A stretch of DNA of 64,000 nucleotides from Paludibacteraceae bacterium (GCA_017541805.1 JAFXYK010000061.1:5674-69673), one strand, 5' to 3'; numbered from the stretch's first letter, positions 7,167 through 49,364 are shown. Made by a program: numbers and translations. The notes: generated from the letters alone by a model not told the origin.

Positions 7167-7198
7167 CAAAGGTAGTACAAAATATTTAAATTTGCAAA
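7167..7198 (-). promoter_or_regulatory. Bacteroidota-type promoter for the lipoprotein gene 6132-7145
   Basis: Minus strand reads TTTG-N20-TACCTTTG, 21 nt upstream of ATG 7145. Confidence 0.65.
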
Positions 7199-7213
7199 AA
7201 AAAGCACTAAAAA

Positions 7214-7245
7214 TTTGCGTATTTCAATATTTTTTACTAATTTTG
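7214..7245 (+). promoter_or_regulatory. Bacteroidota-type promoter for the AraC-family gene
   Basis: TTTG(7214-7217)-N20-TAATTTTG(7238-7245). Confidence 0.6.
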
Positions 7246-9664: not shown

Positions 9665-9696
9665 CAAAGGTACTGCTTTTTTTTGAATTGTGCAAA
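9665..9696 (-). promoter_or_regulatory. Bacteroidota-type promoter for tRNA-Thr
   Basis: Minus strand reads TTTG-N20-TACCTTTG within the cassette TTTGCACAATTCAAAAAAAAGCAGTACCTTTGCACC. Confidence 0.7.
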
Positions 9697-9711
9697 TATT
9701 TTTGCATTTTT

Positions 9712-9743
9712 TTTGCGTATATGGTATAATTTTTGTACCTTTG
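9712..9743 (+). promoter_or_regulatory. Bacteroidota-type promoter for the gene at 9753
   Basis: TTTG(9712-9715)-N20-TACCTTTG(9736-9743). Confidence 0.65.
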
Positions 9744-15226: not shown

Positions 15227-15258
15227 CAAAGATACACTTTTTTTTGCATATATCCAAA
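15227..15258 (-). promoter_or_regulatory. Bacteroidota-type promoter for hpf-lysS
   Basis: Minus strand reads TTTG-N20-TATCTTTG. Confidence 0.6.
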
Positions 15259-15283
15259 AAATATTGAAAATAAATCGTAATTA

Positions 15284-15315
15284 TTTGTATAATCAGAAAA
15301 ATTTTACTAATTTTG
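15284..15315 (+). promoter_or_regulatory. Bacteroidota-type promoter for gcvP
   Basis: TTTG(15284-15287)-N20-TAATTTTG(15308-15315), 27 nt before ATG 15343. Confidence 0.65.
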
Positions 15316-19438: not shown

Positions 19439-21145
19439 ATGGAATTTGCAGTACAAATTGTAACCCTGATCGGCTCAGTAGCGATGCTGATGTTCGGTAT
19501 GAAGGTGATGTCTGAAGGCCTTCAGAAGATGGCGGGTAGTAAGTTGAGCAACGTGCTAGGTACGATGACGACGAACCGCTTCACGGGTGTACTCACCGGT
19601 TCGTTCATCACGGCGGCAGTGCAGTCTTCTACGGCTACAACGGTCATGACGGTCAGCTTCGTGAGTGCCGGTATTCTCTCGCTTGCGCAGGCGATCTCGG
19701 TGATTATGGGTGCGAATATCGGTACGACCTTCACGGCGTGGATCATGGTGCTTGGTGGCGGTAGTTTTGACATGCGCCTGGTGGTTTATACGCTGATTGT
19801 AGTGGCGGTAGCGCTGATCTATTCGAAGAAGAAAGCGAACTTAGGTGATTTCCTGATAGGTTTGGCATTGATGTTATTAGGTTTGACGACCTTGAAGATC
19901 AATGCAACCGAGATGCACCTGGATGAGATGGACGCAGTGCGTAATTTCTTTAACGCGACATCCAGCTGGGGCTACGGCAGTTATTTCTTATACCTGTTGG
20001 TGGGTGGTATCTTGACCTTCGCGGTACAGAGTTCGGCGGCGATCATGGCCATCACCATGACCCTCTGTTCTACGCACGTGTTGCCGATTGATATGGGTAT
20101 CTCGCTCGTGCTCGGTGAGAATATCGGTACTACGATCACATCGAATATCGTCGCTCTCTCAGCCTCCGTGCAGGCGAGACGTGCGGCGCTGGCGCACTTG
20201 GTGTTCAACCTCTTCGGTGTGATCTGGGTGCTGTGTATCTTCCGCATGTTCGTCGGCTTTGTATGCGATCTATGGAATGTGGACTTCACGCCGGGTAAGA
20301 CCTCTGACGTCGATGCAATTCAGTTGAGTGCGATCCTGGCTACGTTCCACACTTTCTTTAACGTCTTCAACACCTGTATCCTCATCGGATTTATCAAGTA
20401 TCTGGAGAAGCTGGTCATCTGGATCTTGCCGTCCAAGCCGGAGCAGAAAGATACGGACAGCCAACTGCGCTTTATCTCCGGTGGCCTTATGTCCACGTCC
20501 GAGTTGTCTATCCTTCAGGCATGGAAAGAGATTCACGTCTTCGGTGTACGTACGCAGCGCATGATCGGTATGATTCACGACCTCTATAACGAGACGGATG
20601 AGACGGAGTTCACGAAGATCTTCTCGCGTATCGAGAAATATGAAGGTATATGCGACCGTATGGAATATGAGATCGCGCAGTACCTGAATGCCGTGGCGGA
20701 CGGTCGTCTGTCGGATCAGTCCAAGCACGAGGTGCACAAGATGCTGCGTATCGTGAGTGAGTTGGAGTCGGTGGGTGATGCGAACTATAACTTATCCCGT
20801 TATATCCGACATAAGCACGAGAACAACATCAAATATACGGACTATCAGAATAAGAACGTCGAGATGATGATTTACCTGCTGAGCGGTGCGGAGACAATGA
20901 TGGTGGAGGCGCTTGAGCGCGTGAATATCACAGAGGATGCATTCCATGAAATGACCAACATGGAGAATGAGATCAATAATTTCCGCGATGAACTGAAGAT
21001 GCAGAATATGCAGCATATCACGGAGAAAGAATATGACTATACAACCGGCGTCAACTACATGGATATCATCCTCGAATTAGAGAAGATGGGTGACTATATC
21101 ATCAATGTAGAGGAGGCTATCTACGAACATAAACACGATAAGTAA
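19439..21145 (+). CDS. Na/Pi cotransporter family protein with a PhoU-like C-terminal domain
   Basis: GMKVMSEGLQK..AAVQSSTATTVMTVSFV..GANIGTT repeated twice, followed by a helical C-terminal region. Confidence 0.88.
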   Translation: MEFAVQIVTLIGSVAMLMFGMKVMSEGLQKMAGSKLSNVLGTMTTNRFTGVLTGSFITAAVQSSTATTVMTVSFVSAGILSLAQAISVIMGANIGTTFTAWIMVLGGGSFDMRLVVYTLIVVAVALIYSKKKANLGDFLIGLALMLLGLTTLKINATEMHLDEMDAVRNFFNATSSWGYGSYFLYLLVGGILTFAVQSSAAIMAITMTLCSTHVLPIDMGISLVLGENIGTTITSNIVALSASVQARRAALAHLVFNLFGVIWVLCIFRMFVGFVCDLWNVDFTPGKTSDVDAIQLSAILATFHTFFNVFNTCILIGFIKYLEKLVIWILPSKPEQKDTDSQLRFISGGLMSTSELSILQAWKEIHVFGVRTQRMIGMIHDLYNETDETEFTKIFSRIEKYEGICDRMEYEIAQYLNAVADGRLSDQSKHEVHKMLRIVSELESVGDANYNLSRYIRHKHENNIKYTDYQNKNVEMMIYLLSGAETMMVEALERVNITEDAFHEMTNMENEINNFRDELKMQNMQHITEKEYDYTTGVNYMDIILELEKMGDYIINVEEAIYEHKHDK

Positions 21146-23151: not shown

Positions 23152-24189
23152 ATGTTAAAAGATTCGATTCAAAATTTATTAGGTCAAGTACGTGAAATGA
23201 ACGCAGCCAACGCGGAAGAGTTGGAGGCGCTGCGTATTAAATATCTCAGTAAGAAAGGCGAGATCACGGCGCTCTTCAATGAGTTCCGTGAGGTGCCGGC
23301 TGACCAGAAACGTGAGATTGGTCAGATGCTGAATCAACTGCGTCAGCAGGCTGAGACACGTATTAACGAGCTCAAGGAGCAGTTCGAGGCGAAGAAAGCT
23401 GAGGCGGAGAAACTGGACCTCACTCGTACGCCGGATCCGATTGCCTTAGGTACACGTCATCCGCTGTCGCTGGTGCGGGAAGAGATCGAAGATATCTTCT
23501 CTCGTATCGGATTCACGATCGCACAAGGACCGGAGGTGGAGGATGACAAGCACGTGTACGGCATGCTTAATTTCGCTCCGGAGCACCCGGCGCGTGATAT
23601 GCAGGATACGTTCTTCATCGAGAAAGAGATCGGTGTACAGAAGCCGACAGACGTGCTGCTGCGCTCGCATACATCCTCTGTGCAGACACGCGTGATGACG
23701 AGTCAGAAACCGCCTATCCGTGTGCTCTGTCCCGGGCGTGTGTATCGTAACGAGGCGATCTCCGCACGTGCGCACTGTTTCTTCCACCAGGTAGAAGGAC
23801 TCTATATCGATAAGAATGTCTCGTTCGCTGACCTGCGCGAAGCGCTGCTCTATTTCAGCAAAGAGATGTTCGGACCGGAGACCAAGATCCGTCTGCGTCC
23901 GTCGTATTTCCCGTTCACGGAGCCGAGTGCAGAGATGGATATCAGTTGTAATATCTGCGGCGGAACAGGATGTTCATTCTGCAAAGGCACCGGATGGGTG
24001 GAGATCCTCGGTTGTGGTATGGTCGATCCGAACGTGCTCGAGGCATGCGGCATTGATAGCAAGGAATATAGCGGCTACGCCTTCGGTATGGGCGTGGAGC
24101 GTATTACGAACCTCAAATACCGCGTGAAGGACCTGCGTCTGTTCTCCGAGAACGACGTCCGTTTCTTGCGACAGTTCGAGAGTTGTTAA
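23152..24189 (+). CDS. pheS: Phenylalanine--tRNA ligase alpha subunit
   Basis: HPLSLVREEIEDIF..LLRSHTSSVQ..GRVYRNE..FHQVEG..YFPFTEPS..GMGVERI. Confidence 0.96.
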   Translation: MLKDSIQNLLGQVREMNAANAEELEALRIKYLSKKGEITALFNEFREVPADQKREIGQMLNQLRQQAETRINELKEQFEAKKAEAEKLDLTRTPDPIALGTRHPLSLVREEIEDIFSRIGFTIAQGPEVEDDKHVYGMLNFAPEHPARDMQDTFFIEKEIGVQKPTDVLLRSHTSSVQTRVMTSQKPPIRVLCPGRVYRNEAISARAHCFFHQVEGLYIDKNVSFADLREALLYFSKEMFGPETKIRLRPSYFPFTEPSAEMDISCNICGGTGCSFCKGTGWVEILGCGMVDPNVLEACGIDSKEYSGYAFGMGVERITNLKYRVKDLRLFSENDVRFLRQFESC

Positions 24190-24221
24190 AAAAAGAAGAG
24201 CCGTGCGGCTCTTTTTTTTTA
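24188..24221. terminator. Bidirectional intrinsic terminator (pheS / DUF2490-like gene)
   Basis: Stem AAGAGCC / GGCTCTT (24196-24202, 24207-24213), flanked by an A-run and a 9-nt T-run. Confidence 0.75.
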
Positions 24222-25049
24222 CCATTCGAAGTTATACGATATTCCGAAGAGGTTTTGATACATCGTTTCTTCGGTTAACTCGATCTTTCCTTTCTTCTTC
24301 GTTATATTGATATCGCGGTTGTAGCCGTACGTGAAACGATAGTAGAAATCGAACGAACTGCGCTTGCTCACGCGCCATTTAACGCCCACTTGGGTGCGTA
24401 CGTGGTTGATGAACTGCTGACCGTCTTTCTGCATGTATTCCGGAGCATTCAGCGTGTTCTCCACCTCCAACCACACATAGGGCTTTACGTTCGGGCGGCT
24501 GAAGATGTAGAAATCCGAACCTATACGGCTGCGAAGCAGCCATGTAGCGGCGTTCCTCTCCAGCGCATTGATGCTGTCCGTCCGTATGTCGCACAGGAAA
24601 CGCTCACGCAGGTAAATCTTGGCGTAGCGCATCTTATATGAGCCGGTGAGGCCGAAGAAAACACGGTGACGCAGGAACTTACTCGGATCCGACCAGCCTT
24701 TGTTACCCAAGAGACGAAGCGTATAGCCGGCGTCGCCTTTGAGATACGGAAACTCCGGGTGAGCGTACGAGAGCGACAGGGTGGTGTAAGACTTGGTGAA
24801 CGCAGCTGCATACGTTGTGTCAATTGCTACTTGTTTGGCACTCATACCAGTCTTGGTGTCATAGAGACTGAAACGCACGTGCTCCGAGAGACTCAACTTA
24901 AGACCATTGTCCCATTTCTTGGAGAAAGAGACACCGAGGCGCGTCTGGACACTCTGTTCCGTCGTTGCACCCTGGCTGTCGTATGTCACGGCGAAAGCCG
25001 ATAGACCGAGCATCAACAGCACTCCTATGCATGATAAACGAAGCCGCAT
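24219..25049 (-). CDS. Outer-membrane beta-barrel protein, DUF2490-like
   Basis: Signal peptide MRLRLSCIGVLLMLGLSAFA, alternating beta-strand pattern, and a C-terminal ..LFGISYNFEW aromatic end. Confidence 0.6.
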   Translation of the reverse strand: MRLRLSCIGVLLMLGLSAFAVTYDSQGATTEQSVQTRLGVSFSKKWDNGLKLSLSEHVRFSLYDTKTGMSAKQVAIDTTYAAAFTKSYTTLSLSYAHPEFPYLKGDAGYTLRLLGNKGWSDPSKFLRHRVFFGLTGSYKMRYAKIYLRERFLCDIRTDSINALERNAATWLLRSRIGSDFYIFSRPNVKPYVWLEVENTLNAPEYMQKDGQQFINHVRTQVGVKWRVSKRSSFDFYYRFTYGYNRDINITKKKGKIELTEETMYQNLFGISYNFEW

Positions 25050-25055
25050 AAACGC

Positions 25056-25877
25056 TTAACTTTGAGCTTTATACTTCACCATCTGATCGATACTGTTGTG
25101 TATCTTTCCTGCCTCAAGAGGGTAGGTCACTTTGATGTACGCTACGTCGCGCAGGAAGTCAATATGTCCAATTTCGACATCCAGCACTTTGAGTCCCGTA
25201 CGCTCCTCGATGTCGGCGATTAGCGTTGCACGGTTCTCCGGCTTGATGTTCTCAATTTTCTCATAAAGAATGATTTTCGTTGAAATGCGCTTGCGCGCCT
25301 GCCATGCTTCGAAGCCCCACGCCATGAGTACTATCACCGCATTCGCAAAGAGCAACAGGTACCATGCTAGGCCTTCTGCTTTCAGGCTCAGGGAGTTGAT
25401 TACAGAGATCGCGATGATGAGGAACATATAGTTCATCTCGCGGATAGGCACCGTTTCTGTACGGTAGCGGATCATTCCGAAGATAGCAAAAAGACCCAAT
25501 ACAAACCCGGTCTGAATGTCCAATATCTGCATCAACCAGAGCAGCACAAACATACCGCTGGAGAACAGCATATACGTCACATAATAATCGCGACGATGGC
25601 TGAACCGATAGTAGATGCAATAGACCACTAACCAGGTCACCAGCAGGTTGAAAAGGAACATCAACGGCATAGTGATCAGATTGTCACTCACGTGCAGAAA
25701 ATCGGCAATGTTATTCATCAGCGTCGAGATACTCTCCGGTGCACCACCGAACTCAGCGGCTATCTCCGGATCAAAATCACCTGGTGTCGCGGCTGCTAGC
25801 GTGTTGTCTGTTACCGGATCTAAAAAACCTTCCGGCATGGGTTCCATCGTGGGATTGCTAAAATCTACTTGAATCAT
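25056..25877 (-). CDS. DUF4956-like integral membrane protein
   Basis: 273 aa with about 5 TM helices (LFNLLVTWLVVYCIYYRF, MLFSSGMFVLLWLMQIL, ..) and a soluble C-terminal domain. ATGA overlap with the VTC gene. Confidence 0.6.
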   Translation of the reverse strand: MIQVDFSNPTMEPMPEGFLDPVTDNTLAAATPGDFDPEIAAEFGGAPESISTLMNNIADFLHVSDNLITMPLMFLFNLLVTWLVVYCIYYRFSHRRDYYVTYMLFSSGMFVLLWLMQILDIQTGFVLGLFAIFGMIRYRTETVPIREMNYMFLIIAISVINSLSLKAEGLAWYLLLFANAVIVLMAWGFEAWQARKRISTKIILYEKIENIKPENRATLIADIEERTGLKVLDVEIGHIDFLRDVAYIKVTYPLEAGKIHNSIDQMVKYKAQS

Positions 25878-26653
25878 ATTGCTAACATTTTTTCTATAGT
25901 TCGAATCTTATTCTTAAACCGGTTTTTCTTGATGTCCGGTGTGGTGAGCGCAATACCGATGCAGTATTTACTGATCTTGAACGGATGCACCCGCAGATCC
26001 AGCATGATATCAGTCATGTGTGATGGTACATTGCCGTCGCGCTTGAGTTCAATGATCACCAGGTCGTTAAACGTCTTCATTTCTCCGCTCACCACATTGG
26101 TCCATAGCAGGTCCATGTCGATCGTCAACCGTTCGGTTTTCGCCTTATTAACCAAGGTGATACGGTGAAACTTCGTACTCAGGTGCGGACTCAGTTCCGA
26201 CCACTGATAGCGGCTCTTGGCGGCAATGAAATCCTCTACGCTCCATAGCTCTTTTTTGCTCTCACCGAAGGTGCTGCCCTGAATATCAAAACCCGGCACC
26301 GCGATGCGTTTTTTCTTCGTCCGCCCTTTGTTGTTCTTGCGTTTGATCTCCAGAAACGTCAACTGACTCTCTACATATTGACGCACCCGAATCTTCTGCC
26401 GCACCAGCTGTTTGTCGTGATGGCGCACATACATATCCAGGCTCTCAGTGTCATAATACATCGTGTCGTACGTCGCGATGCGCTTGCCGTCGATCTCTTG
26501 AGCATAATAGTCTTTCTGTGCCGCATCCAGGATCGCAGGAAGCATCGACAAAGGCACCGCAAACTTGGTGTCGATGCGGTTCATCAGTTTGACGCTCTCC
26601 ATCTCGTCTAACGAGATAGGGTCGAACTTACTTATCTGAGAAGATATACTCAA
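25874..26653 (-). CDS. VTC-domain (polyphosphate polymerase domain / CYTH-like) protein
   Basis: 259 aa: LMNRIDTKFAV..YDTMYYDT..QKIRVRQY..LTFLEIKRK..ERLTIDMDL..LVIIELKRDG. This matches my memory of bacterial VTC-domain proteins. Confidence 0.7.
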   Translation of the reverse strand: MSISSQISKFDPISLDEMESVKLMNRIDTKFAVPLSMLPAILDAAQKDYYAQEIDGKRIATYDTMYYDTESLDMYVRHHDKQLVRQKIRVRQYVESQLTFLEIKRKNNKGRTKKKRIAVPGFDIQGSTFGESKKELWSVEDFIAAKSRYQWSELSPHLSTKFHRITLVNKAKTERLTIDMDLLWTNVVSGEMKTFNDLVIIELKRDGNVPSHMTDIMLDLRVHPFKISKYCIGIALTTPDIKKNRFKNKIRTIEKMLAI

Positions 26654-27056
26654 AAACCTTGATACTGAATAGTTTACCGTTCGGTAAATAGTTGTACTGT
26701 TTGGCTTTGGTGCCGTCCGTATTCCACTCGTATTTACGGATGCGCACAGGACGGTTGCGGTCGTTGTATTCCACTTCTTCCACTACCTTACCCGTCACAT
26801 CATCGTATTTGCTCGTCACGCGCTTGCGTTGGCCGTAGCTGGCGTACTCAATCTCCTCGACGCAGCGGCCCTGATCGTCATACACTTTCACGTGATCCAA
26901 CCACCGTGCATTCGTCTTCGAATCGGTGTTCCATTCTTTTACGGTCAGGTTCTTACGTTTCTCACGCTTAGCGAGTTGCTCCGGCGTTAATAAACTTTGG
27001 GCTGCAGCCGTGCCTGCGATCAGCAGACAAGCCATCAAATACATGTATCTTTTCAT
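26628..27056 (-). CDS. Small secreted protein with three ~22-aa hairpin repeats
   Basis: From ATG 27056: MKRYMYLMACLLIAGTAAAQS, then VKVYDDQGRCVEEIEY / SKYDDVTGKVVEEVEY / RKYEWNTDGTKAKQYNY. The track's 57-codon N-terminal extension overlaps queH and was rejected. Confidence 0.6.
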   Translation of the reverse strand: MKRYMYLMACLLIAGTAAAQSLLTPEQLAKREKRKNLTVKEWNTDSKTNARWLDHVKVYDDQGRCVEEIEYASYGQRKRVTSKYDDVTGKVVEEVEYNDRNRPVRIRKYEWNTDGTKAKQYNYLPNGKLFSIKVFEYIFSDK

Positions 27057-27063
27057 ATCTTTC

Positions 27064-27690
27064 TTATTTTCGTTGACTGAACTCACAACCGCAGTAGAGC
27101 TGGTTGTAAAAATTATATTCTTTGAGCAATTGATTTCTGCGCTCCTGTAATCCGTCCTTCCGCCAGTTCTGCGCCCAAAAACTGACTTCTGAATGCTGAA
27201 TACTGACTGCTTCCGCTGCGCGCTCACCTGCAGCGTTTATCTGCTCCAGGTTTTTCCATCGTGAAGAGGCGAGGGTAGTGGCGAAGAATGGAATACCCAG
27301 TTCTTGTGCCTTCCGGGCCGTAGCTAACAGACGATGGTAGAAACATGCTTCGCATCGCCGTCCCCGCTCGGGTTCGTCTTCCAAGCCACAAATATCATGC
27401 CGCCATGCGTCGTGCATTTCTTTGTAGCAGCTTTGTTGGCTTGCTTCGGTTCTAAACCGGTCATTATCGATCCAGGTGATGCCCAGCGATTCTGCATGCC
27501 TTTTGCTTTCGTTCTTGCGAATCTCGTATTCCTCGCGCGGATATATATTAGGATTATAGTAGTAAATAACCGGCTCAATCCGGTGTGCCAACAGCCATTC
27601 CACAATAGCACTGGAGCACGGGGCACAGCAGGCGTGTAGCAGCACTTTCGTGCAGCCTTCGGGAACTATTATGGCGCTTTTTATCGGCAT
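27064..27690 (-). CDS. queH: Epoxyqueuosine reductase QueH (DUF208)
   Basis: LLHACCAPCSS..YYYNPNIYP..RCEACFYHRL..TLASSRWKN..YCGCEFS. Confidence 0.9.
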   Translation of the reverse strand: MPIKSAIIVPEGCTKVLLHACCAPCSSAIVEWLLAHRIEPVIYYYNPNIYPREEYEIRKNESKRHAESLGITWIDNDRFRTEASQQSCYKEMHDAWRHDICGLEDEPERGRRCEACFYHRLLATARKAQELGIPFFATTLASSRWKNLEQINAAGERAAEAVSIQHSEVSFWAQNWRKDGLQERRNQLLKEYNFYNQLYCGCEFSQRK

Positions 27691-27719: not shown

Positions 27720-27750
27720 CAAAAGTACACTTTTTTTTGCACATATCAAA
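27720..27750 (-). promoter_or_regulatory. Bacteroidota-type promoter for the queH-VTC operon
   Basis: Minus strand reads TTTG-N19-TACTTTTG. Confidence 0.6.
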
Positions 27751-27767
27751 ATAAATTTGTAATTTTG
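27736..27767 (+). promoter_or_regulatory. Bacteroidota-type promoter for small lipoprotein A
   Basis: TTTG(27736-27739)-N20-TAATTTTG(27760-27767). It overlaps the divergent queH promoter. Confidence 0.6.
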
Positions 27768-27840: not shown

Positions 27841-28137
27841 ATGAAGAAAGTATTATTCTTTGCTGCTGTATTGGCAGTTGCTTCTATGACTTTCGTTGCT
27901 TGTGGCAAGAAAGAGAACAAAGAGGCTGAGCAAGAATGCAACGAGGCAACCGAGCAAGTAGAGGCTGCTCCTGCTGCTGACGTTGACCGTGCAGAGGCTG
28001 CTACCCAGGCTATCGAGGCTGCTGCTTCGATGGAAGAGGTGATGGCTGTAGCTATGGAGTATCAGGACCTCTCTGACGAGGACTTCACTCCGGAGCAACA
28101 AGCTCGTATGCAAGCTGCTGTAGCTAAATTGCAATAA
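27841..28137 (+). CDS. Small acidic lipoprotein (paralog A)
   Basis: MKKVLFFAAVLAVASMTFVACGKKENKEAE.. is a lipobox. The C-terminus is ..EYQDLSDEDFTPEQQARMQAAVAKLQ. Confidence 0.7.
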   Translation: MKKVLFFAAVLAVASMTFVACGKKENKEAEQECNEATEQVEAAPAADVDRAEAATQAIEAAASMEEVMAVAMEYQDLSDEDFTPEQQARMQAAVAKLQ

Positions 28138-28247: not shown

Positions 28248-28544
28248 ATGAAGAAAGTATTTTTCTATGCTGTTCTCTTTGCTGCTGCTTCGATGACTTT
28301 CGTAGCTTGCGGTAAGAGCGAGAACAAAGAGGCTGAAAACGAAGAGTGCTGCCAAGGCAAAGAGAACCACGAGTGCTGCAAAGCGAAACGTGCTGAGCAA
28401 TACGTCAGCGCAATCGAGGCTGCTCAAACGCTCGAAGAGGCTATCGCGCTGAGCGAGGAGTATCAGGATCTCGTTGGCTACGAGTTCAGTGAGGAGCAAC
28501 AGGCTCGTATGGCTGCTGCTGTTGCTAAATTAGGTGCGCAATAA
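28248..28544 (+). CDS. Small lipoprotein (paralog B) with a CC-x7-CC segment
   Basis: From ATG 28248: MKKVFFYAVLFAAASMTFVACGKSENKEAENEECCQGKENHECCKAK....EYQDLVGYEFSEEQQARMAAAVAKLGAQ. Confidence 0.7.
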   Translation: MKKVFFYAVLFAAASMTFVACGKSENKEAENEECCQGKENHECCKAKRAEQYVSAIEAAQTLEEAIALSEEYQDLVGYEFSEEQQARMAAAVAKLGAQ

Positions 28545-40227: not shown

Positions 40228-40259
40228 CAAAATTACTGCTTTTTTTTGAAATACGCAAA
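40228..40259 (-). promoter_or_regulatory. Bacteroidota-type promoter for valS
   Basis: Minus strand reads TTTG-N20-TAATTTTG. The cassette is TTTGCGTATTTCAAAAAAAAGCAGTAATTTTGTG. Confidence 0.65.
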
Positions 40260-40303
40260 TAAAAAGAAAAAAATCTGCAAATATAGAAATAAAACGAGTT
40301 TTA

Positions 40304-40335
40304 TTTGCATATGTCAAATATTTATTGTAATTTTG
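40304..40335 (+). promoter_or_regulatory. Bacteroidota-type promoter for nadE
   Basis: TTTG(40304-40307)-N20-TAATTTTG(40328-40335). Confidence 0.65.
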
Positions 40336-43236: not shown

Positions 43237-44544
43237 ATGGCTGCATTCATTGTAGAAGGAGGACATAAACTGCATGGCAGTATCACGCCGCAGGGCGCCA
43301 AGAACGAAGCGCTGCAAGTGCTGTGTGCCGTGCTGCTGACCAAAGAGACGGTGGTGATCAACAATCTGCCGAACATCCTCGATGTAAACAACCTGATTGA
43401 TTTGCTCGCATCCATCGGTGTGCGCGTGGAGAAACTGAGTAAGGGTACGTATGCTTTCACGGCATCGGAACTCGATACGGCGTATCTGCGCAGTGCTGAT
43501 TTCCTCAAGAAATGCAACAAACTGCGTGGCTCGGTGATGCTCATCGGTCCGCTTTTGGCGCGTCTCGGCGAAGTGACATATGCAAAACCCGGCGGCGATA
43601 AGATCGGTCGTCGGCGTCTGGACACACATTTTCAAGGCATGGTGAACCTCGGGGCGACGTTTAAATATGACCAGGAACTGCTGGCTTACCGTTTTAACGG
43701 TAAACACCTGAAGGGCACCTACATGCTATTGGACGAAGCTTCTGTCACCGGAACAGCGAACATCATTATGGCGTCTGTCCTCGCCGAAGGAACCACTACA
43801 ATCTACAATGCAGCCTGCGAACCGTACGTGCAGCAACTTTGCCGTCTCTTGAATAACATGGGTGCGAAGATCAGCGGAGTCGGCTCGAACTTGTTGACCA
43901 TCGAAGGTGTGAAATCGCTTCACGGCGCACAACATAAACTCTTGCCGGATATGATCGAAGTCGGTTCATTTATCGGCATGGCAGCTATTACCGGTTCTGA
44001 ACTGCGTATCAAAGAGGCGGGAATAAAAGACCTTGGAATCATTCCCGATGCTTTCCGCCGTTTAGGAATCCGCATTGAGGAAGAAGGGGACGATCTGGTT
44101 ATTCCTGCGCAGGAGCACTATCAGATTGAGTCGTTCCTCGATGGCTCTATTCTCACGGTTGCCGATGCGCCGTGGCCGGGCCTGACGCCGGACTTGCTGT
44201 CTGTCCTTCTTGTGGTAGCCACACAGGCAAAAGGCTCTGTGCTTATCCACCAGAAGATGTTCGAATCCCGTCTTTTCTTTGTGGACAAACTGATTGACAT
44301 GGGCGCGCAGATCATCCTCTGTGATCCTCACCGTGCAGTTGTAGTTGGTCACGACCACACCCGCCAACTCAAACGCAATAACATGACTTCGCCCGATATC
44401 CGTGCAGGTATAGCCATGCTGATTGCCGCCATGTCTGCCGAAGGCACATCCCGTATCGACCACATCGACCAGATCGACCGTGGTTACGAAGACATCGAGC
44501 ACCGCCTTAACGCCATCGGTGCTTGCATAAAGAGAGAGGAGTGA
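43237..44544 (+). CDS. murA: UDP-N-acetylglucosamine 1-carboxyvinyltransferase
   Basis: FIVEGGHKLHGSITPQGAKNEALQVL..KPGGDKIGRRRLDTH..DRGYEDIE.RL. Confidence 0.95.
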   Translation: MAAFIVEGGHKLHGSITPQGAKNEALQVLCAVLLTKETVVINNLPNILDVNNLIDLLASIGVRVEKLSKGTYAFTASELDTAYLRSADFLKKCNKLRGSVMLIGPLLARLGEVTYAKPGGDKIGRRRLDTHFQGMVNLGATFKYDQELLAYRFNGKHLKGTYMLLDEASVTGTANIIMASVLAEGTTTIYNAACEPYVQQLCRLLNNMGAKISGVGSNLLTIEGVKSLHGAQHKLLPDMIEVGSFIGMAAITGSELRIKEAGIKDLGIIPDAFRRLGIRIEEEGDDLVIPAQEHYQIESFLDGSILTVADAPWPGLTPDLLSVLLVVATQAKGSVLIHQKMFESRLFFVDKLIDMGAQIILCDPHRAVVVGHDHTRQLKRNNMTSPDIRAGIAMLIAAMSAEGTSRIDHIDQIDRGYEDIEHRLNAIGACIKREE

Positions 44545-44588
44545 AAGTAATATGCAAAATTTGCATATAACAAGAAAATAAAATAAGA

Positions 44589-45593
44589 ATGAACGAGAAA
44601 CCTATAGAAAATAGAGGTGAGATTATCATCTATCGTGCAGAAGACAACACGGTTCAGCTCGATGTGCGCATGGAGAACGAAACCGTGTGGCTAAGTCAGC
44701 AACAGATGGTTCAGCTTTTCAACTCCACAAAGCAAAATATTAGTTTGCATATTGGCAATATATTTCGCGAGGGAGAATTACAAAAAGAAGCAACCGTCAA
44801 GGAATACTTGACAGTTCAAACTGAAGGAAATCGGCAAATCTGTCGTAAAGTTCTGTACTATAACCTTGATGTAATCATCTCCGTTGGTTATCGTGTCAAG
44901 TCTCAACGCGGTGTACAATTCCGTCAATGGGCAAACAGAATTCTCAAAGACTACCTCGTCAAAGGTTTTGCCATCAATGAAAAACTCCGCCGTGAGCAGT
45001 TGTCGGATCTGCGGCAGTTGGTCCAGATTGTAGGACGGACGGTGCAAAGCAAAGCGGTAGAGAGCGCAGATGAGACGCAAGCTATTTTTGATGTGGTTTT
45101 GGATTACACGTACGCGTTGGATACGCTCGATAATTATGATTACGAGCGTCTGACCGTCAAAGAGACCACGCCCGAAGAACGATTCCATGCTACGTACGAG
45201 AATGCTATGCAAACGATTAGCGCACTGCGTGAGAAATTCGGTGGAAGCACTTTGTTTGGCAATGAGAAAGACGATTCGTTCAAAAGCAGTATAGGTCAGA
45301 TTTATCAGACCTTTGGAGGCAAGGACCTCTATCCGAGTGTGGAAGAGAAAGCGGCGATGTTGCTGTATTTGGTTACCAAGAACCACTCCTTCTCTGATGG
45401 CAACAAACGCATTGCAGCAACTTTGTTCCTCTGGTTCTTGAACAACAACGGCATCCTCTATCGCGAAGATGGCACCAAGCGTTTGGCGGATAACACCCTT
45501 GTCGCACTAACCCTTATGATTGCCGAGAGCCGCATAGAAGAAAAAGACACCATGGTCAAAGTGGTAGTAAACTTGATAAACCAGAAGAACTGA
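44589..45593 (+). CDS. RhuM-family protein with a C-terminal Doc/Fic domain
   Basis: YYNLDVIISVGYRVKSQRGVQFRQWANRILKDYLVKGF (RhuM signature) plus HSFSDGNKRIAATLF (Doc-type Fic motif H-x-F-x-D-G-N-K-R). Confidence 0.8.
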   Translation: MNEKPIENRGEIIIYRAEDNTVQLDVRMENETVWLSQQQMVQLFNSTKQNISLHIGNIFREGELQKEATVKEYLTVQTEGNRQICRKVLYYNLDVIISVGYRVKSQRGVQFRQWANRILKDYLVKGFAINEKLRREQLSDLRQLVQIVGRTVQSKAVESADETQAIFDVVLDYTYALDTLDNYDYERLTVKETTPEERFHATYENAMQTISALREKFGGSTLFGNEKDDSFKSSIGQIYQTFGGKDLYPSVEEKAAMLLYLVTKNHSFSDGNKRIAATLFLWFLNNNGILYREDGTKRLADNTLVALTLMIAESRIEEKDTMVKVVVNLINQKN

Positions 45594-45653
45594 AAGTATA
45601 ATATTGTAACACAAGATATTTTTTTGATTAATGAATAAAACAAATAATAATCT

Positions 45654-47027
45654 ATGAAAAAATCAATCTTTCTTTTTATCATTTTGGTTTGTGCGATGAG
45701 TGCGCAAGCAGTTGAGTACTTTAGATACACTAACGCAGAGGGTGTAGAACTAAGGTATCGTATTATCAATTCAAAGGAAGTGGCAGTAACTCCTGACATT
45801 ACTACCAGTTCTTGGGACAGCACCACGGTTAATTATCCAAACATTCTATGTGATAGTATTCGTATACCGGACACGGTAGAATATAATGGTAATTCTTACA
45901 TGGTTATTGGTATTGACAACAATTCTTTTGCCTGTGTGAAAAATGTAAAAAAGGTAATACTCCCGAAAACCATTCGTTCTGCTCCATCATTGGCATTTAA
46001 TTACATTTCAGGAATAGAAGAAATTATTGTGGACGAAGAAAATCCGTATTATACAACAGTAAATGGTGTTATGTATACCAAGGATATGAAATGTCTAACT
46101 GCTTATCCTTCTGCGAAGCCTGACTCCGTATTTATAGTGCCGGAAGGTCCACAATCCGTAGGTATGTATGCTTTTACATTGTTAAGAAATTTAAAAGACA
46201 TCACGATGCCATTAACCTTAAAAACAATGGAAAATGGAGCAATGATTACCGGTAGTATTCAGCGCGCTGTATTTCAAGATAGTGTAACGATGTTTGAGTA
46301 TGGAGCATGTTCTTTGTACGAAGCGGAAGAAATCGTGTTGGGCAACAGCGTAGATACATTTAATTCGCCAATAATTGCATTTTCCAAACCGATAACATTA
46401 ACTTGCCGCACAATAACACCGCCTTACTTCCCATTACAATCAGCAGCAGGTTCCCATCTTGGTGAATCAGAGTTGCGTGTCCCCATGCAAAGTGTTGCTG
46501 CTTATCAGCAAGCCGAAGGATGGAAATTATTTGGCAACATTGTATCTATCGAGCCGCCTATAGTAACCGGTTTGGATAATGTGCAAGTGTCGTGGGTGCA
46601 AAATTTCTCTGCAACGGGCTATGTCTGGACGCTTTATACGGACGAGGCGCATACACAGCGGTATATGACGCTTACCTTTGATGCAAACGGACATTTGACA
46701 GGTATTGACTTGGCGGGGAATCAAGCACCAGCACGTGTACCGGCTTTGTATGAAGAGGACGAAGAAGAAGCAACGCAATTCGCAGAATATTACTCGTTTA
46801 CGATTACAGGTCTCTCTGCGAACACGACCTATTATTTCGTCCGCCAGAGCCTGAACGGAACAGATGTTATTGACGAGGAAAACGGTACATTTGAAACACT
46901 ATCCAGTACTGAGGCTGTTGAAAAAATCAACGATGCCTCTGCTCCCATAAAAGTCATCAGCAACGGTGGTATATTTATTAAACAAGGTGATAAAACCTAT
47001 ACTCTCCAAGGTCAAGAGGTAAGATGA
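45654..47027 (+). CDS. Secreted BspA-type leucine-rich-repeat surface protein
   Basis: Signal peptide MKKSIFLFIILVCAMSAQA. Repeated ..IPDTV..IG..AF..C..L..I.LP.. LRR_5-like units. A Fn3-like C-terminal region and the shared C-terminal tail. Confidence 0.7.
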   Translation: MKKSIFLFIILVCAMSAQAVEYFRYTNAEGVELRYRIINSKEVAVTPDITTSSWDSTTVNYPNILCDSIRIPDTVEYNGNSYMVIGIDNNSFACVKNVKKVILPKTIRSAPSLAFNYISGIEEIIVDEENPYYTTVNGVMYTKDMKCLTAYPSAKPDSVFIVPEGPQSVGMYAFTLLRNLKDITMPLTLKTMENGAMITGSIQRAVFQDSVTMFEYGACSLYEAEEIVLGNSVDTFNSPIIAFSKPITLTCRTITPPYFPLQSAAGSHLGESELRVPMQSVAAYQQAEGWKLFGNIVSIEPPIVTGLDNVQVSWVQNFSATGYVWTLYTDEAHTQRYMTLTFDANGHLTGIDLAGNQAPARVPALYEEDEEEATQFAEYYSFTITGLSANTTYYFVRQSLNGTDVIDEENGTFETLSSTEAVEKINDASAPIKVISNGGIFIKQGDKTYTLQGQEVR

Positions 47028-47089
47028 AAGCGAAGTGGGTGAGTATAGTGGATAGTTAACTAAAGTATAATCATAATCAGTCTTCACTC

Positions 47090-47133
47090 GGCAACGACAC
47101 GGCAACGACACGGCATCGACGTATGACGTCACT
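47090..47133. repeat. 11-nt array, 4 units (GGCAACGACAC x2, GGCATCGACGT, ATGACGTCACT), containing the TGACGTCA palindrome
   Basis: Direct reading. TGACGTCA lies at 47124-47131. Confidence 0.8.
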
Positions 47134-47173
47134 ACAATGTTAGTACAATAATCAACCCAAATTACAAGCAAAT

Positions 47174-47506
47174 ATGGCACAAGCGGAACTCAATATCGCA
47201 ATTGACAAAATGTCCGGCAAAATCTATGGAGAAAGCGATGTGTATATTACCCATCGTTACGGCAAAACGGTCATTTCTCATTACCCCAAACATCGGGATC
47301 CTAATTCTCTCACGCCTCATCAGCGTGACCTAAACACCTCTTTCGCCCAACTGTCCAAACAGGCAAAACTTGAACTTGCTGATCCCGAAAAACGTGCCGC
47401 TTGGCAGCAACGATATGACGAATATAAAGCCAAATATAATCCGGCAGACAAATACTATTTCACCCTCCGTGGCTTTGTCATCGCCCAATTGAAAAAATCG
47501 GAGTAA
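47174..47506 (+). CDS. Hypothetical 110-aa basic protein
   Basis: ATG-initiated ORF with no signal peptide: MAQAELNIAIDKMSGKIYGESDVYITHRYGKTVISHYPKHRDPNSLTPHQRD... No family recognised. Confidence 0.45.
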   Translation: MAQAELNIAIDKMSGKIYGESDVYITHRYGKTVISHYPKHRDPNSLTPHQRDLNTSFAQLSKQAKLELADPEKRAAWQQRYDEYKAKYNPADKYYFTLRGFVIAQLKKSE

Positions 47507-47590
47507 GTCTCATCTGCCTATCCAGACATATTTCGCAAGAATCCGCTTTATAATAAAAATTTGGTTCATATAATAAAATTTTAATATGCA

Positions 47591-49267: not shown

Positions 49268-49290
49268 GAGCGCATGACAATGAAGATTCT

Positions 49291-49322
49291 CTTGCATATA
49301 TCAGAAAAAAGCAGTACCTTTG
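49291..49322 (+). promoter_or_regulatory. Candidate promoter for the dsbD-like gene
   Basis: CTTG-N20-TACCTTTG. The cassette is CTTGCATATATCAGAAAAAAGCAGTACCTTTGCGG. Confidence 0.55.
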
Positions 49323-49364
49323 CGGGTCGCAAAGAATAGTGATCATTAACGATAATAACGACGT

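What the first reader, a model, noticed from the sequence alone, without database searches (positions are those of the whole stretch)
24219..27690. Five-gene operon joining a VTC polyphosphate-polymerase domain to a DUF4956 membrane protein, an outer-membrane barrel and a periplasmic repeat protein
Seen in sequence: five minus-strand genes lie behind one recognisable promoter (27720-27750) and end at the hairpin at 24188-24221. The spacings are a 7-nt gap, a 26-nt overlap, an ATGA overlap and a 6-nt gap. In order they are queH, a 142-aa signal-peptide protein, a 259-aa VTC/CYTH-like protein (IRVRQY, FLEIKRK, VIIELKRDG), a 273-aa ~5-TM DUF4956-like protein and a 276-aa DUF2490-like barrel. Established knowledge: in eukaryotes the VTC domain is the catalytic core of a complex that couples polyphosphate synthesis to membrane translocation. 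Inference: this may be an envelope-spanning, Ppk-independent route that makes polyP and moves it to the periplasm or the cell surface. I know of no experimental role for the bacterial VTC+DUF4956 pair.
Basis: partly seen in the sequence, partly recalled or inferred. Interest (0 to 1): 0.7.

Follow-up and report, generated by a model that had tools for sequence, protein, structure and literature searches.

The report
Bacterial VTC-type polyphosphate module, envelope-linked
A gut or rumen Bacteroidales bacterium carries a conserved four-gene cluster that pairs a yeast-type (VTC) polyphosphate polymerase with an inner-membrane partner, a secreted repeat protein and a basic outer-membrane barrel; it may be a second, untested bacterial route for making and moving polyphosphate.

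Summary
Five minus-strand genes (queH, a 142-aa secreted repeat protein, a 259-aa VTC protein, a 273-aa DUF4956 protein and a 276-aa DUF2490 protein) sit between one full Bacteroides-type promoter (27720-27750) and one terminator, with the stated spacings. All three predicted Pfam families match.

The functional unit is four genes, not five. Across 80 Bacteroidales species, VTC and DUF4956 are adjacent in 79, DUF2490 follows in 76, and the repeat protein is present in 73. queH abuts the cluster in only 3. About 60 loci also carry a lipoprotein gene that this window lacks.

The VTC protein keeps eight of the nine Vtc4 residues needed for polyphosphate synthesis. These include the lysine that separates active Vtc4 from inactive Vtc2/3. 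DUF4956 models as five transmembrane helices plus an ACT-like domain and resembles no solved structure, including the VTC channel.

In other phyla the VTC/DUF4956 pair sits beside phosphate transporters, phytase-like and acid phosphatases, an OprO/P-type porin, or CotH kinases.

A membrane-coupled polyphosphate enzyme in phosphate homeostasis is well supported. Export across the envelope is plausible but unproven. Cytoplasmic storage and polyphosphate import remain live rivals. The pair has been noted in the literature but never assayed.

The parts
27720..27750 (-). Bacteroides-type promoter: -33 TTTG (27747-27750), 19-nt spacer, -7 TACTTTTG (27720-27727). It overlaps a divergent promoter at 27736-27767 (+).
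   Evidence: The bipartite motif occurs 13 times in the window against 0.5 expected, and this is the only copy on the minus strand upstream of or within the cluster.
27064..27690 (-). queH (epoxyqueuosine reductase). It is probably co-transcribed here but is not part of the conserved module.
   Evidence: Pfam QueH 4e-54. It directly abuts the cluster in only 3 of 80 related loci and lies within about 5 kb in 8 more.
26628..27056 (-). Secreted 142-aa beta-hairpin-repeat protein ('sp142'). It has a type-I signal peptide, and the mature part is basic (pI 9.2) with a conserved AKRxKRKNLTVKEWN motif.
   Evidence: A homologue is present in 73 of 80 loci, mostly directly upstream of VTC and sometimes after DUF2490.
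25874..26653 (-). Cytoplasmic VTC-domain (triphosphate tunnel) protein, a putative polyphosphate polymerase. It has a TTG start that overlaps sp142 by 26 nt.
   Evidence: Pfam VTC 1.6e-30. A family profile finds only Vtc2/Vtc4 at E < 0.01 in the PDB. Catalytic residue equivalents are K30, R89, R91, K104, R164, E202, S228 and K229.
25056..25877 (-). DUF4956 inner-membrane protein. It has an acidic N-terminal tail (net -12), five transmembrane helices, and a C-terminal ACT-like beta-alpha-beta-beta domain. Its ATGA start overlaps VTC.
   Evidence: Pfam DUF4956 4e-47. AlphaFold2 pLDDT 75.5. Foldseek gives only weak ACT-domain hits. It is adjacent to VTC in 79 of 80 Bacteroidales loci and in four other phyla.
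24219..25049 (-). DUF2490 outer-membrane beta-barrel. It has a signal peptide and a C-terminal ...NFEW, and the mature protein is unusually basic (net +13, pI 9.6).
   Evidence: Pfam DUF2490 5.5e-10 plus a weak OMP_b-brl hit. It is present directly after DUF4956 in 76 of 80 loci. Of 16 well-conserved positions, 7 are Arg and 1 is Lys.
24186..24213 (-). Intrinsic terminator hairpin (stem 24196-24213) with a T run. It is flanked by an A run, so it can act in both directions with the convergent pheS gene.

Best explanation
The conserved unit is four genes: sp142, VTC, DUF4956 and DUF2490. In most relatives a lipoprotein gene is added. In this genome queH sits in front as a passenger under the same promoter.

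Proposed mechanism:
1. The soluble VTC protein is a Vtc4-like tunnel enzyme. It polymerises the gamma-phosphate of ATP into polyphosphate at the cytoplasmic face of the inner membrane.
2. It works only together with DUF4956. The arginine-rich cytoplasmic loop of DUF4956 (GLFAIFGMIRYRTE...) and its ACT-like domain dock and regulate the enzyme. Its five-helix bundle, probably as an oligomer, passes the growing chain to the periplasm. The membrane potential (outside positive) would favour this, as it does at the yeast vacuole.
3. The acidic periplasmic tail of DUF4956 contacts the basic secreted repeat protein.
4. The basic, arginine-lined DUF2490 barrel lets phosphate species cross the outer membrane.
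5. The whole serves phosphate homeostasis.

Shown: gene structure, family membership, conserved catalytic residues, synteny, and co-variation between the tail and the repeat protein.

Inferred: polymerase activity, the VTC-DUF4956 contact, translocation, and its direction.
For: Pfam VTC at 106.9 bits.

In 65 diverse bacterial homologues the invariant residues are R26, K30, R89, R91, K104, K114, R116, R164, E202, K204, S228 and K229. The profile alignment to Vtc4 (3g3q; chain index + 185) puts them on R196, K200, R264, R266, K281, K294, R296, R361, E426, K428, S457 and K458. K200, R264, R266, K281, R361, S457, K458 and Y359 are required for polyP content in yeast, and E426 chelates the Mn2+. 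K458 is I/L in the inactive Vtc2/3 (bioRxiv 10.1101/2023.01.27.525886). R264A/R266A/E426N is the standard dead mutant (PMC9911596). The same residues are invariant in Alphaproteobacteria and Deinococcus.

Pairing: VTC and DUF4956 are adjacent in 79 of 80 Bacteroidales species. They are also adjacent, in either gene order, in Nitratireductor, Aminobacter, Shinella and two Deinococcus. In Streptomyces and Nonomuraea, unannotated matches to both proteins lie within about 300 nt of each other.

DUF2490 follows DUF4956 in 76 of 80 loci. sp142 is present in 73 of 80.

DUF4956 topology: loops 1 and 3 and the stretch after TM5 hold 10 K/R, against 1 on the other side. The N-tail has no K/R and 12 D/E.

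The N-tail motif DPxIAxxF co-occurs with the polybasic type of sp142 (60/6/1/12).

The barrel and sp142 are basic. In Pseudoalteromonas the gene after DUF4956 is a phosphate-selective OprO/P-family porin (Pfam 2.4e-47).
Against: No activity has been measured for any bacterial member.

The Tyr359 equivalent is Phe in Bacteroidales (Tyr in Alphaproteobacteria, Cys in Deinococcus). Y359F lowers polyP in yeast.

Position 28 is an invariant Asp/Glu where Vtc4 has Thr. This recalls the acidic ExExK strand of hydrolytic tunnel enzymes (my knowledge).

DUF4956 has no detectable similarity to the VTC membrane domain or to any solved channel. A published analysis reads it as an MgtC-like regulator with an ACT domain and suggests the polyP stays cytoplasmic (bioRxiv 10.1101/2024.04.20.589940).

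Phosphate-scavenging neighbours fit storage or import as well as export.

The co-variation statistic is not corrected for phylogeny; it rests on roughly three clades.
Confidence: 0.4

Rival explanations
1. Uptake plus a cytoplasmic sink. VTC makes polyphosphate that stays in the cytoplasm. DUF4956 is only a membrane anchor and ACT-domain sensor or regulator, MgtC-like in role, playing the part of the SPX domain in yeast. The barrel and the repeat protein bring phosphate in. The module is a Pho-type 'take up and store' unit.
For: Neighbours in other phyla are a PiT transporter, phytase-like esterases, a HAD acid phosphatase, phnDCE and an OprO/P porin. The C-terminal domain of DUF4956 is ACT-like. 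The Streptococcus intermedius authors propose cytoplasmic polyP and an MgtC-like partner. In yeast the VTC genes belong to the PHO regulon together with transporters and secreted phosphatases (my knowledge).
Against: An anchor or regulator would not be expected to keep polar residues in the membrane helices (N77 and N179 invariant, N161 nearly so, within Bacteroidales). It also would not be expected to have an acidic periplasmic tail that co-varies with a secreted protein. hhalign of the family against E. coli YhiD (MgtC family) finds nothing, and Pfam MgtC hits 1 of 35 members at E = 0.007. The invariable pairing with a polytopic membrane protein mirrors the eukaryotic coupling.
Confidence: 0.3
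2. Polyphosphate (or pyro-/oligophosphate) scavenging. An exposed lipoprotein, the barrel and the repeat protein capture the external polymer. DUF4956 threads it inward. The tunnel enzyme consumes it processively, either running in reverse (polyP + ADP -> ATP) or acting as a hydrolase.
For: The layout resembles Bacteroidetes nutrient-uptake loci: lipoprotein, outer-membrane barrel, periplasmic protein, inner-membrane protein, cytoplasmic enzyme. There is an OprO/P-family porin in Pseudoalteromonas and phosphate-acquisition neighbours elsewhere. An acidic residue at position 28 and loss of the Tyr359 equivalent distinguish the bacterial enzymes from Vtc4. Many tunnel enzymes are tripolyphosphatases (my knowledge).
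Against: The enzyme belongs to the VTC family, not the hydrolytic CYTH families, and keeps the Vtc4-specific lysine. Importing a polyanion works against the membrane potential. The CotH/pel contexts in Gram-positives do not look like nutrient uptake.
Confidence: 0.15
3. The tunnel enzyme acts on a different substrate or makes a different product, for example by phosphorylating or polyphosphorylating an envelope glycan, lipid or protein, or by turning over a nucleotide or triphosphate. The module would then modify the cell surface rather than handle free polyphosphate.
For: The module is associated with beta-helix 'carbohydrate-binding' Cthe_2159 lipoproteins in 36 of 80 loci. It is associated with pel polysaccharide operons, CotH kinases and a glycoside hydrolase in Gram-positives. 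The tunnel-enzyme superfamily is catalytically diverse (my knowledge).
Against: All the triphosphate- and polyP-binding residues of Vtc4 are kept. Deleting the Streptococcus genes did not change Pel. The phosphate-metabolism neighbours in Proteobacteria and Deinococcus are not explained.
Confidence: 0.1

Closest known systems
Yeast/eukaryotic VTC complex (Vtc4/Vtc3 or Vtc2/Vtc1; PDB 3G3Q, 8I6V)
   Same: It has the same catalytic domain family (Pfam VTC). It has the same tunnel residues, including the Lys458 equivalent found only in the active subunit. The catalytic domain is always combined with a membrane component, and there is a link to phosphate homeostasis.
   Different: The bacterial enzyme is a free 250-aa soluble protein. 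It has no SPX domain and no fused three-helix DUF202-type membrane domain. Its partner is an unrelated five-helix + ACT protein. Tyr359 is Phe here, and Thr198 is an invariant Asp/Glu. Activity is untested.
cotH - VTC-like - DUF4956 accessory genes of Gram-positive pel operons (S. intermedius SIR_1594/1593/1592; bioRxiv 10.1101/768473 and 10.1101/2024.04.20.589940)
   Same: It has the same VTC + DUF4956 pair. Its catalytic residues are also reported as kept. DUF4956 is likewise described as a transmembrane region plus an ACT domain.
   Different: Here there is no CotH, no pel operon and no DUF4832 hydrolase. Instead there are diderm-specific partners: the DUF2490 barrel, the secreted repeat protein and, in relatives, lipoproteins. 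Those authors reported not finding the trio outside pel operons.
MgtC family (five transmembrane helices + C-terminal ACT-like domain)
   Same: It has the same overall architecture. MgtC is tied to phosphate/ATP homeostasis in Salmonella (as cited).
   Different: I could not confirm homology. hhalign against E. coli YhiD gives nothing, and the Pfam MgtC model hits 1 of 35 members weakly.
OprO/OprP phosphate- and pyrophosphate-selective porins (Pfam Porin_O_P)
   Same: It has the same position in the cluster: the gene directly after DUF4956 in Pseudoalteromonas is an OprO/P-family porin. DUF2490 is likewise a basic barrel rich in conserved arginines.
   Different: DUF2490 is a different, smaller family with no Porin_O_P hit. 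Its selectivity has never been measured.
PPK1/PPK2, the established bacterial polyphosphate kinases
   Same: The proposed reaction is the same: ATP-dependent polyP synthesis, probably reversible.
   Different: The fold is unrelated. PPKs are not paired with an envelope set of genes. A 2025 review still assigns PPK to prokaryotes and VTC to eukaryotes (PMC12526157).

Membership tests
VTC-type polyphosphate polymerase (Vtc4-like triphosphate tunnel enzyme) | Match to the Pfam VTC domain above the curated cut-off, over the full domain | tested here: met
   106.9 bits against a cut-off of 23; residues 25-236 cover model positions 1-233 of 235.
VTC-type polyphosphate polymerase (Vtc4-like triphosphate tunnel enzyme) | Basic tunnel residues K200, R264, R266, K281 and R361, plus S457 | tested here: met
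   K30, R89, R91, K104, R164 and S228 are invariant in 65 diverse homologues. They align to those Vtc4 positions by profile against 3g3q. Their roles are given.
VTC-type polyphosphate polymerase (Vtc4-like triphosphate tunnel enzyme) | Metal-binding Glu426 | tested here: met
   E202 in VIIELK aligns with E426 in VLEVK.
VTC-type polyphosphate polymerase (Vtc4-like triphosphate tunnel enzyme) | Lys458, present in active Vtc4 but Ile/Leu in inactive Vtc2/Vtc3 | tested here: met
   K229 (ISKYC) aligns with K458 (FSKF) and is invariant across phyla.
VTC-type polyphosphate polymerase (Vtc4-like triphosphate tunnel enzyme) | Tyr359 | tested here: not met
   F162 in the window and in Bacteroidales; Tyr in Alphaproteobacteria; Cys in Deinococcus. 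Y359F lowers polyP in yeast.
VTC-type polyphosphate polymerase (Vtc4-like triphosphate tunnel enzyme) | ATP-dependent synthesis of polyphosphate | not testable with these tools
   This needs an enzyme assay. No published assay of a bacterial member was found.
Eukaryotic VTC complex (as an assembly) | Catalytic domain joined to a DUF202-type three-helix membrane domain and to SPX sensor domains | tested here: not met
   The 259-aa protein has only the VTC domain. The neighbour is DUF4956, with no sequence or fold match to VTC chains.
DUF4956 (PF16316) | Full-length match above the cut-off | tested here: met
   160.5 bits against a cut-off of 30.6; residues 77-252 cover model positions 1-169 of 169.
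MgtC family | Detectable homology to MgtC/YhiD proteins | tested here: inconclusive
   hhalign of the 35-sequence profile against E. coli YhiD gives probability 0.1%. Pfam MgtC hits 1 of 35 members at E = 0.007. CDD is reported to assign the Streptococcus homologue to MgtC. The shared architecture (five TM helices + ACT-like domain) is seen in the model.
DUF2490 outer-membrane barrel (PF10677; TCDB 1.B.81) | Pfam match above the cut-off, a signal peptide and a C-terminal aromatic residue | tested here: met
   39.7 bits against a cut-off of 29.8, plus a weak OMP_b-brl hit. The N-terminus is MRLRLSCIGVLLMLGLSAFA and the protein ends ...NFEW. The downstream genes in distant loci score up to 114 bits.
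OprO/OprP porins | Match to Porin_O_P | tested here: not met
   The window barrel has no such hit. Only the Pseudoalteromonas neighbour is a member.
Single operon from a Bacteroides sigma-A-type promoter | TTTG-N19-21-TAnnTTTG upstream, no other such site inside, and a terminator at the end | tested here: met
   Transcription itself was not tested. A 7/8 -7-like box lies inside queH.

The most novel reading that the evidence does not exclude
Bacteria have a third, VTC-type class of polyphosphate synthase that works only with DUF4956 as a synthesis-coupled translocase. In Bacteroidales it is built into an envelope-spanning apparatus (DUF4956 tail, secreted repeat protein, DUF2490 barrel, lipoprotein) that deposits polyphosphate in the periplasm or on the cell surface. 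This would be a bacterial counterpart of the acidocalcisome/vacuole pathway. It may have arisen by recruiting an unrelated membrane protein.
Probability: 0.22. Interest if true: 0.85.

Novelty: new variant of a known kind. Interest (0 to 1): 0.6.

Why it matters
Textbooks and a 2025 review assign polyphosphate synthesis to PPK enzymes in prokaryotes and to VTC in eukaryotes.

This family is large: 3,978 clusters at 50% identity, 879 of them with E <= 1e-30. It keeps the Vtc4 active site and is spread over at least five phyla. It is abundant in gut and rumen Bacteroidales, including Segatella copri and Parabacteroides.

If it is active, several consequences follow:
- Bacterial polyP budgets, and ppk-knockout phenotypes in these organisms, would need re-reading.
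- Coupling of polymer synthesis to membrane passage would have a simple two-protein bacterial model.
- Periplasmic or surface polyP would affect metal binding, phosphate storage and host interactions in the gut.

The question can be tested directly with a 259-aa soluble protein and a 273-aa membrane partner.

Tried and rejected
- phmmer of the single VTC protein against PDB sequences found nothing. A family profile was needed.
- NCBIfam had no model for any of the five proteins.
- The first AlphaFold2 run of DUF4956, on a shallow alignment (>=75% identity), gave pLDDT 55 and was discarded. A profile search for more diverse homologues raised it to 75.5.
- Foldseek of that model against the PDB had a best E of 0.14. 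Hits were only ACT-like domains, and nothing matched the membrane part or the VTC channel.
- DUF4956 profiles against PDB sequences gave one chance-level hit (E = 3.3) and none.
- The MgtC lead was not confirmed. hhalign against E. coli YhiD was negative, and there was one weak Pfam hit in 35 members.
- The search for related loci with the 65-sequence alignment failed because no conserved stretch was available. A 13-sequence alignment worked.
- I asked whether the nearby Na/Pi cotransporter belongs to the module. It is within reach in only 2 of 80 loci, so I rejected it as a member.
- The defence-system reading was rejected: no PADLOC hit.
- There is no Rfam element in or around the cluster.
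- Literature searches for B. thetaiotaomicron BT3496-99 data gave only a non-significant entry in an iron-stimulon table.
- No paper reports an assay of a bacterial VTC protein.
- ppk1/ppk2 status cannot be settled from this window.

Full report
**1. The observation**

- queH: 27064-27690
- A 142-aa protein: 26628-27056 (here called sp142)
- A 259-aa protein: 25874-26653
- A 273-aa protein: 25056-25877
- A 276-aa protein: 24219-25049

The junctions are a 7-nt gap, a 26-nt overlap, an ATGA overlap and a 6-nt gap.

sp142 has a type-I signal peptide. Its mature part is made of beta-hairpin repeats of the form YDxxGxxxEExEY. It gives only weak hits to DUF2963, MORN_2 and RHS_repeat.

The promoter is real by the standards of this phylum. 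TTTG-N19-TACTTTTG lies at 27720-27750. The full bipartite pattern occurs 13 times in the window against 0.5 expected, always in front of genes. It occurs nowhere else on the minus strand within the cluster. A 7/8 match to the -7 box inside queH (27108-27115) leaves room for a weak internal promoter.

A hairpin with a T run at 24196-24213 ends the unit and faces the convergent pheS gene.

The TTG start of the VTC gene, and hence the 26-nt overlap, is supported. The first 17 residues (...FxPISLxEME) are conserved in relatives that start upstream with ATG, GTG or TTG. Distant representatives align from residue 3-9. NCBI's model of the identical protein is 242 aa and probably too short.

The organism is an uncultured Paludibacteraceae (Bacteroidales) from gut or rumen metagenomes.

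**2. What the conserved unit is**

A scan of one genome per species returned 80 Bacteroidales loci whose VTC proteins are 49-84% identical to this one. They include Paludibacteraceae, Prevotellaceae (among them Segatella copri and Leyella stercorea) and Rikenellaceae. I called ORFs in these loci and searched them with the window proteins.

| Feature | Loci (of 80) | Note |
|---|---|---|
| VTC directly followed by DUF4956 | 79 | The exception is cut by a contig end |
| DUF2490 gene directly after DUF4956 | 76 | Three of the four exceptions are contig ends |
| sp142 homologue | 73 | Usually directly upstream of VTC, often with the same 26-nt overlap; in about eleven loci it lies after DUF2490 |
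| queH within about 5 kb | 11 | Directly abutting in only 3 |

All ten downstream ORFs that phmmer had missed in the distant loci are Pfam DUF2490, scoring up to 114 bits.

In the nearest relatives a gene for a Cthe_2159-family beta-helix lipoprotein lies between queH and sp142. That gene is present next to the cluster in 36 of 80 loci and absent from the whole window.

Another 24 loci, and a Parabacteroides genome, carry a roughly 235-aa lipoprotein with a faint carboxypeptidase-regulatory-like fold in the same position. Many of these lipoproteins have acidic residues just after the lipidated cysteine (for example CNKDDE). From my own knowledge this resembles the Bacteroidetes surface-export signal.

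So the window holds a minimal version: a four-gene core, no accessory lipoprotein, and queH as a passenger sharing the promoter.

**3. The enzyme**

The VTC family in bacteria is large. There are 3,978 clusters at 50% identity with E <= 1e-3, and 879 with E <= 1e-30. Almost all of the 150 best hits are free-standing proteins of about 250 aa.

In 65 diverse members the invariant residues are R26, K30, Y62, Y66, D68, H78, R85, K87, R89, R91, Y93, E102, K104, K114, R116, R164, D179, E202, K204, S228 and K229.

A profile of these sequences finds only Vtc2 and Vtc4 in the PDB (E = 2e-3). The printed alignment, with chain index + 185 equal to Vtc4 numbering, gives this mapping:

| Window residue | Vtc4 residue |
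|---|---|
| R26 | R196 |
| K30 | K200 |
| R89 / R91 | R264 / R266 |
| K104 | K281 |
| K114 | K294 |
| R164 | R361 |
| E202 | E426 |
| K204 | K428 |
| S228 / K229 | S457 / K458 |

In yeast, K200, R264, R266, K281, Y359, R361, S457 and K458 are each needed for polyP. E426 chelates the Mn2+. K458 is the one position that differs in the inactive paralogues Vtc2/Vtc3. R264A/R266A/E426N is the standard dead enzyme.

There are two differences from Vtc4.
- The Tyr359 equivalent is Phe in Bacteroidales, Tyr in Alphaproteobacteria and Cys in Deinococcus.
- Position 28, Thr198 in Vtc4, is Asp or Glu in every phylum examined.

I read the protein as a Vtc4-like polymerase with about 0.6 probability. The two differences keep a hydrolytic or reverse activity open.

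**4. The membrane partner**

With an alignment of 136 homologues the AlphaFold2 model reaches pLDDT 75.5. It shows:
- five transmembrane helices (65-93, 97-119, 123-139, 145-166, 172-193)
- a C-terminal beta-alpha-beta-beta domain with pLDDT of about 90

Foldseek finds no solved structure with E < 0.1. The weak hits are ACT or ACT-like domains: TyrA, NikR, aspartate kinase and the acetohydroxyacid synthase regulatory subunit. None is a VTC chain. Sequence profiles find no credible PDB relative either: one chance-level hit (E = 3.3) and none.

The positive-inside rule places the N-terminus outside and the ACT-like domain in the cytoplasm. There are ten K/R residues in loops 1 and 3 and after TM5, against one on the other side.

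The best-conserved stretch is GLFAIFGMIRYRTE...REMTYLF, which spans TM3, the cytoplasmic loop and the start of TM4. Across phyla, G128, L129, F130, R139, Y150 and F152 are invariant, together with R226 and G228 of the ACT-like domain. Within Bacteroidales, N77 and N179 inside helices are invariant and N161 nearly so.

A preprint on Streptococcus intermedius describes the homologue as four transmembrane segments plus an ACT domain. It reports a CDD assignment to MgtC. I could not confirm MgtC homology.

**5. A link across the periplasm**

In the window and most relatives, DUF4956 has a roughly 60-residue N-terminal tail with no K/R and 12 D/E. The tail carries a conserved DPxIAxxF motif. sp142 starts with a conserved polybasic motif, LxPExLAKRxKRKNLTVKEWN, and is basic overall (pI 9.2).

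The two features travel together. Sixty loci have both. Twelve have neither, meaning the tail is short and sp142 is of a divergent type or absent. Seven are mixed, and most of those are regex misses or truncated loci.

The nominal Fisher p is 4e-9. The sequences are related, and the loss probably happened about three times, so I treat this as suggestive only. It suggests that the periplasmic tail of the inner-membrane protein contacts the secreted protein.

The barrel is unusually basic for an outer-membrane protein (net +13, pI 9.6). Seven of its sixteen best-conserved positions are arginines. It ends in an aromatic residue.

**6. Context outside Bacteroidales**

tblastn against plasmid records finds VTC and DUF4956 side by side in several phyla.
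- Nitratireductor: DUF4956, VTC, a PHO4/PiT phosphate transporter, a phytase-like esterase
- Aminobacter and Shinella: DUF4956, VTC, a phytase-like esterase
- Deinococcus taeanensis: CotH, VTC, DUF4956
- Deinococcus sp. QL22: VTC and DUF4956, next to a HAD acid phosphatase and phnDCE
- Streptomyces and Nonomuraea: unannotated matches to both proteins, within about 300 nt of each other

In Pseudoalteromonas a lamin-tail-domain protein and a remnant of a VTC gene precede DUF4956. The next gene there is a phosphate-selective OprO/P-family porin (Pfam 2.4e-47).

In Firmicutes and Bifidobacteria the pair follows pel operons together with a CotH kinase. In Clostridium perfringens NELoc-2, VTC-domain proteins lie alongside a CotH kinase.

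Three points follow. The pair is the invariant core. Its companions are almost all extracytoplasmic. In Proteobacteria and Deinococcus the theme is phosphate acquisition.

This mirrors the yeast PHO regulon, in which VTC genes are co-regulated with transporters and secreted phosphatases (my knowledge). The context therefore supports a role in phosphate homeostasis but does not fix the direction of transport.

**7. Mechanism and rivals**

*Best reading (0.4).* A Vtc4-like polymerase docks on DUF4956. DUF4956 regulates it through the ACT-like domain and passes the chain to the periplasm. There sp142 and the basic barrel handle it. The periplasm is topologically and electrically like the vacuole lumen, so the membrane potential would favour export of a polyanion (my knowledge of the yeast system).

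*Rival 1 (0.3).* The polyP stays in the cytoplasm. DUF4956 is an anchor and sensor, and the barrel imports phosphate.

*Rival 2 (0.15).* The set is a polyphosphate-scavenging locus with the tunnel enzyme running in reverse or hydrolysing. The layout (lipoprotein, barrel, periplasmic protein, inner-membrane protein, cytoplasmic enzyme) looks like a Bacteroidetes uptake locus.

*Rival 3 (0.1).* The enzyme has a different substrate or product, linked to envelope polymers.

A chance cluster is excluded by the synteny.

**8. Novelty**

NCBI already names these proteins 'polyphosphate polymerase domain-containing' and 'DUF4956 domain-containing'. Two pel papers describe the Gram-positive trio with CotH. 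They report that single deletions did not change Pel, but they did not measure polyphosphate.

The only mention I found of the Bacteroidales form is a non-significant line in an iron-stimulon table, for BT3498-99. No paper in the library assays a bacterial VTC protein. A 2025 review still treats VTC as the eukaryotic enzyme.

The enzyme kind is therefore known. What is new here is the diderm, envelope-linked, four-gene form and the evidence tying its parts together. I class it as a new variant of a known kind, with interest 0.6.

There are no defence-system hits and no Rfam element in or around the cluster.

Noticed in passing
window 19439-21145 (+): A Na+/Pi cotransporter with a C-terminal PhoU domain (Pfam 2.4e-51 and 5e-11) lies 3 kb from the cluster. 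A homologue is within 8 kb of the cluster in only 2 of 80 related loci (L005, and L075 where it is divergent from VTC). It is probably a coincidental neighbour, but it is phosphate-related.
   Followed up: partly
window 25874-26653 (-): NCBI's model of the identical VTC protein is 242 aa and starts at the internal ATG. Conservation of residues 1-17 in relatives argues for the 259-aa TTG start, which overlaps the upstream gene by 26 nt.
   Followed up: yes
window 27720-27767: Two full Bacteroides-type promoters overlap back to back: minus strand for queH and plus strand for the gene at 27841. Similar divergent pairs occur at 7167-7245, 9665-9743, 15227-15315 and 40228-40335.
   Followed up: partly
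window 27841-28137 and 28248-28544 (+): Two tandem paralogous genes encode roughly 98-aa lipoprotein-like proteins (signal peptide ending ...FVAC, shared C-terminal EEYQDL...EQQARMAAAVAKL). Neither has a Pfam family.
   Followed up: no
window about 44000-50000: G+C drops to 0.41-0.44, against about 0.50-0.55 elsewhere. The stretch holds several genes for signal-peptide proteins (45654-51011). It may be a horizontally acquired segment.
   Followed up: no
L086 (Pseudoalteromonas plasmid NZ_CP142031.1) 6270-8648: A lamin-tail-domain protein, a 104-aa ORF matching only the last 45 positions of the VTC model (a likely gene remnant), DUF4956, then an OprO/P-family phosphate-selective porin. This would be a DUF4956 kept without an intact VTC partner.
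   Followed up: partly
L008 704-1820 and L014 9580-11340: L008 carries a second, partial inverted copy of the cluster: a DUF2490 gene, a VTC fragment and extra Cthe_2159 genes. L014 has two tandem DUF2490 genes. These are local duplications of module parts.
   Followed up: no
L057, L062, L071, L073, L076, L077, L091, downstream of DUF2490: In one Bacteroidales subgroup a roughly 1,835-1,900-aa bacterial alpha-2-macroglobulin gene directly follows the cluster on the same strand.
   Followed up: no
L048 10209-11954 (also L063): A gene for a protein-kinase domain fused to an AAA ATPase follows DUF2490 on the same strand in two loci.
   Followed up: no
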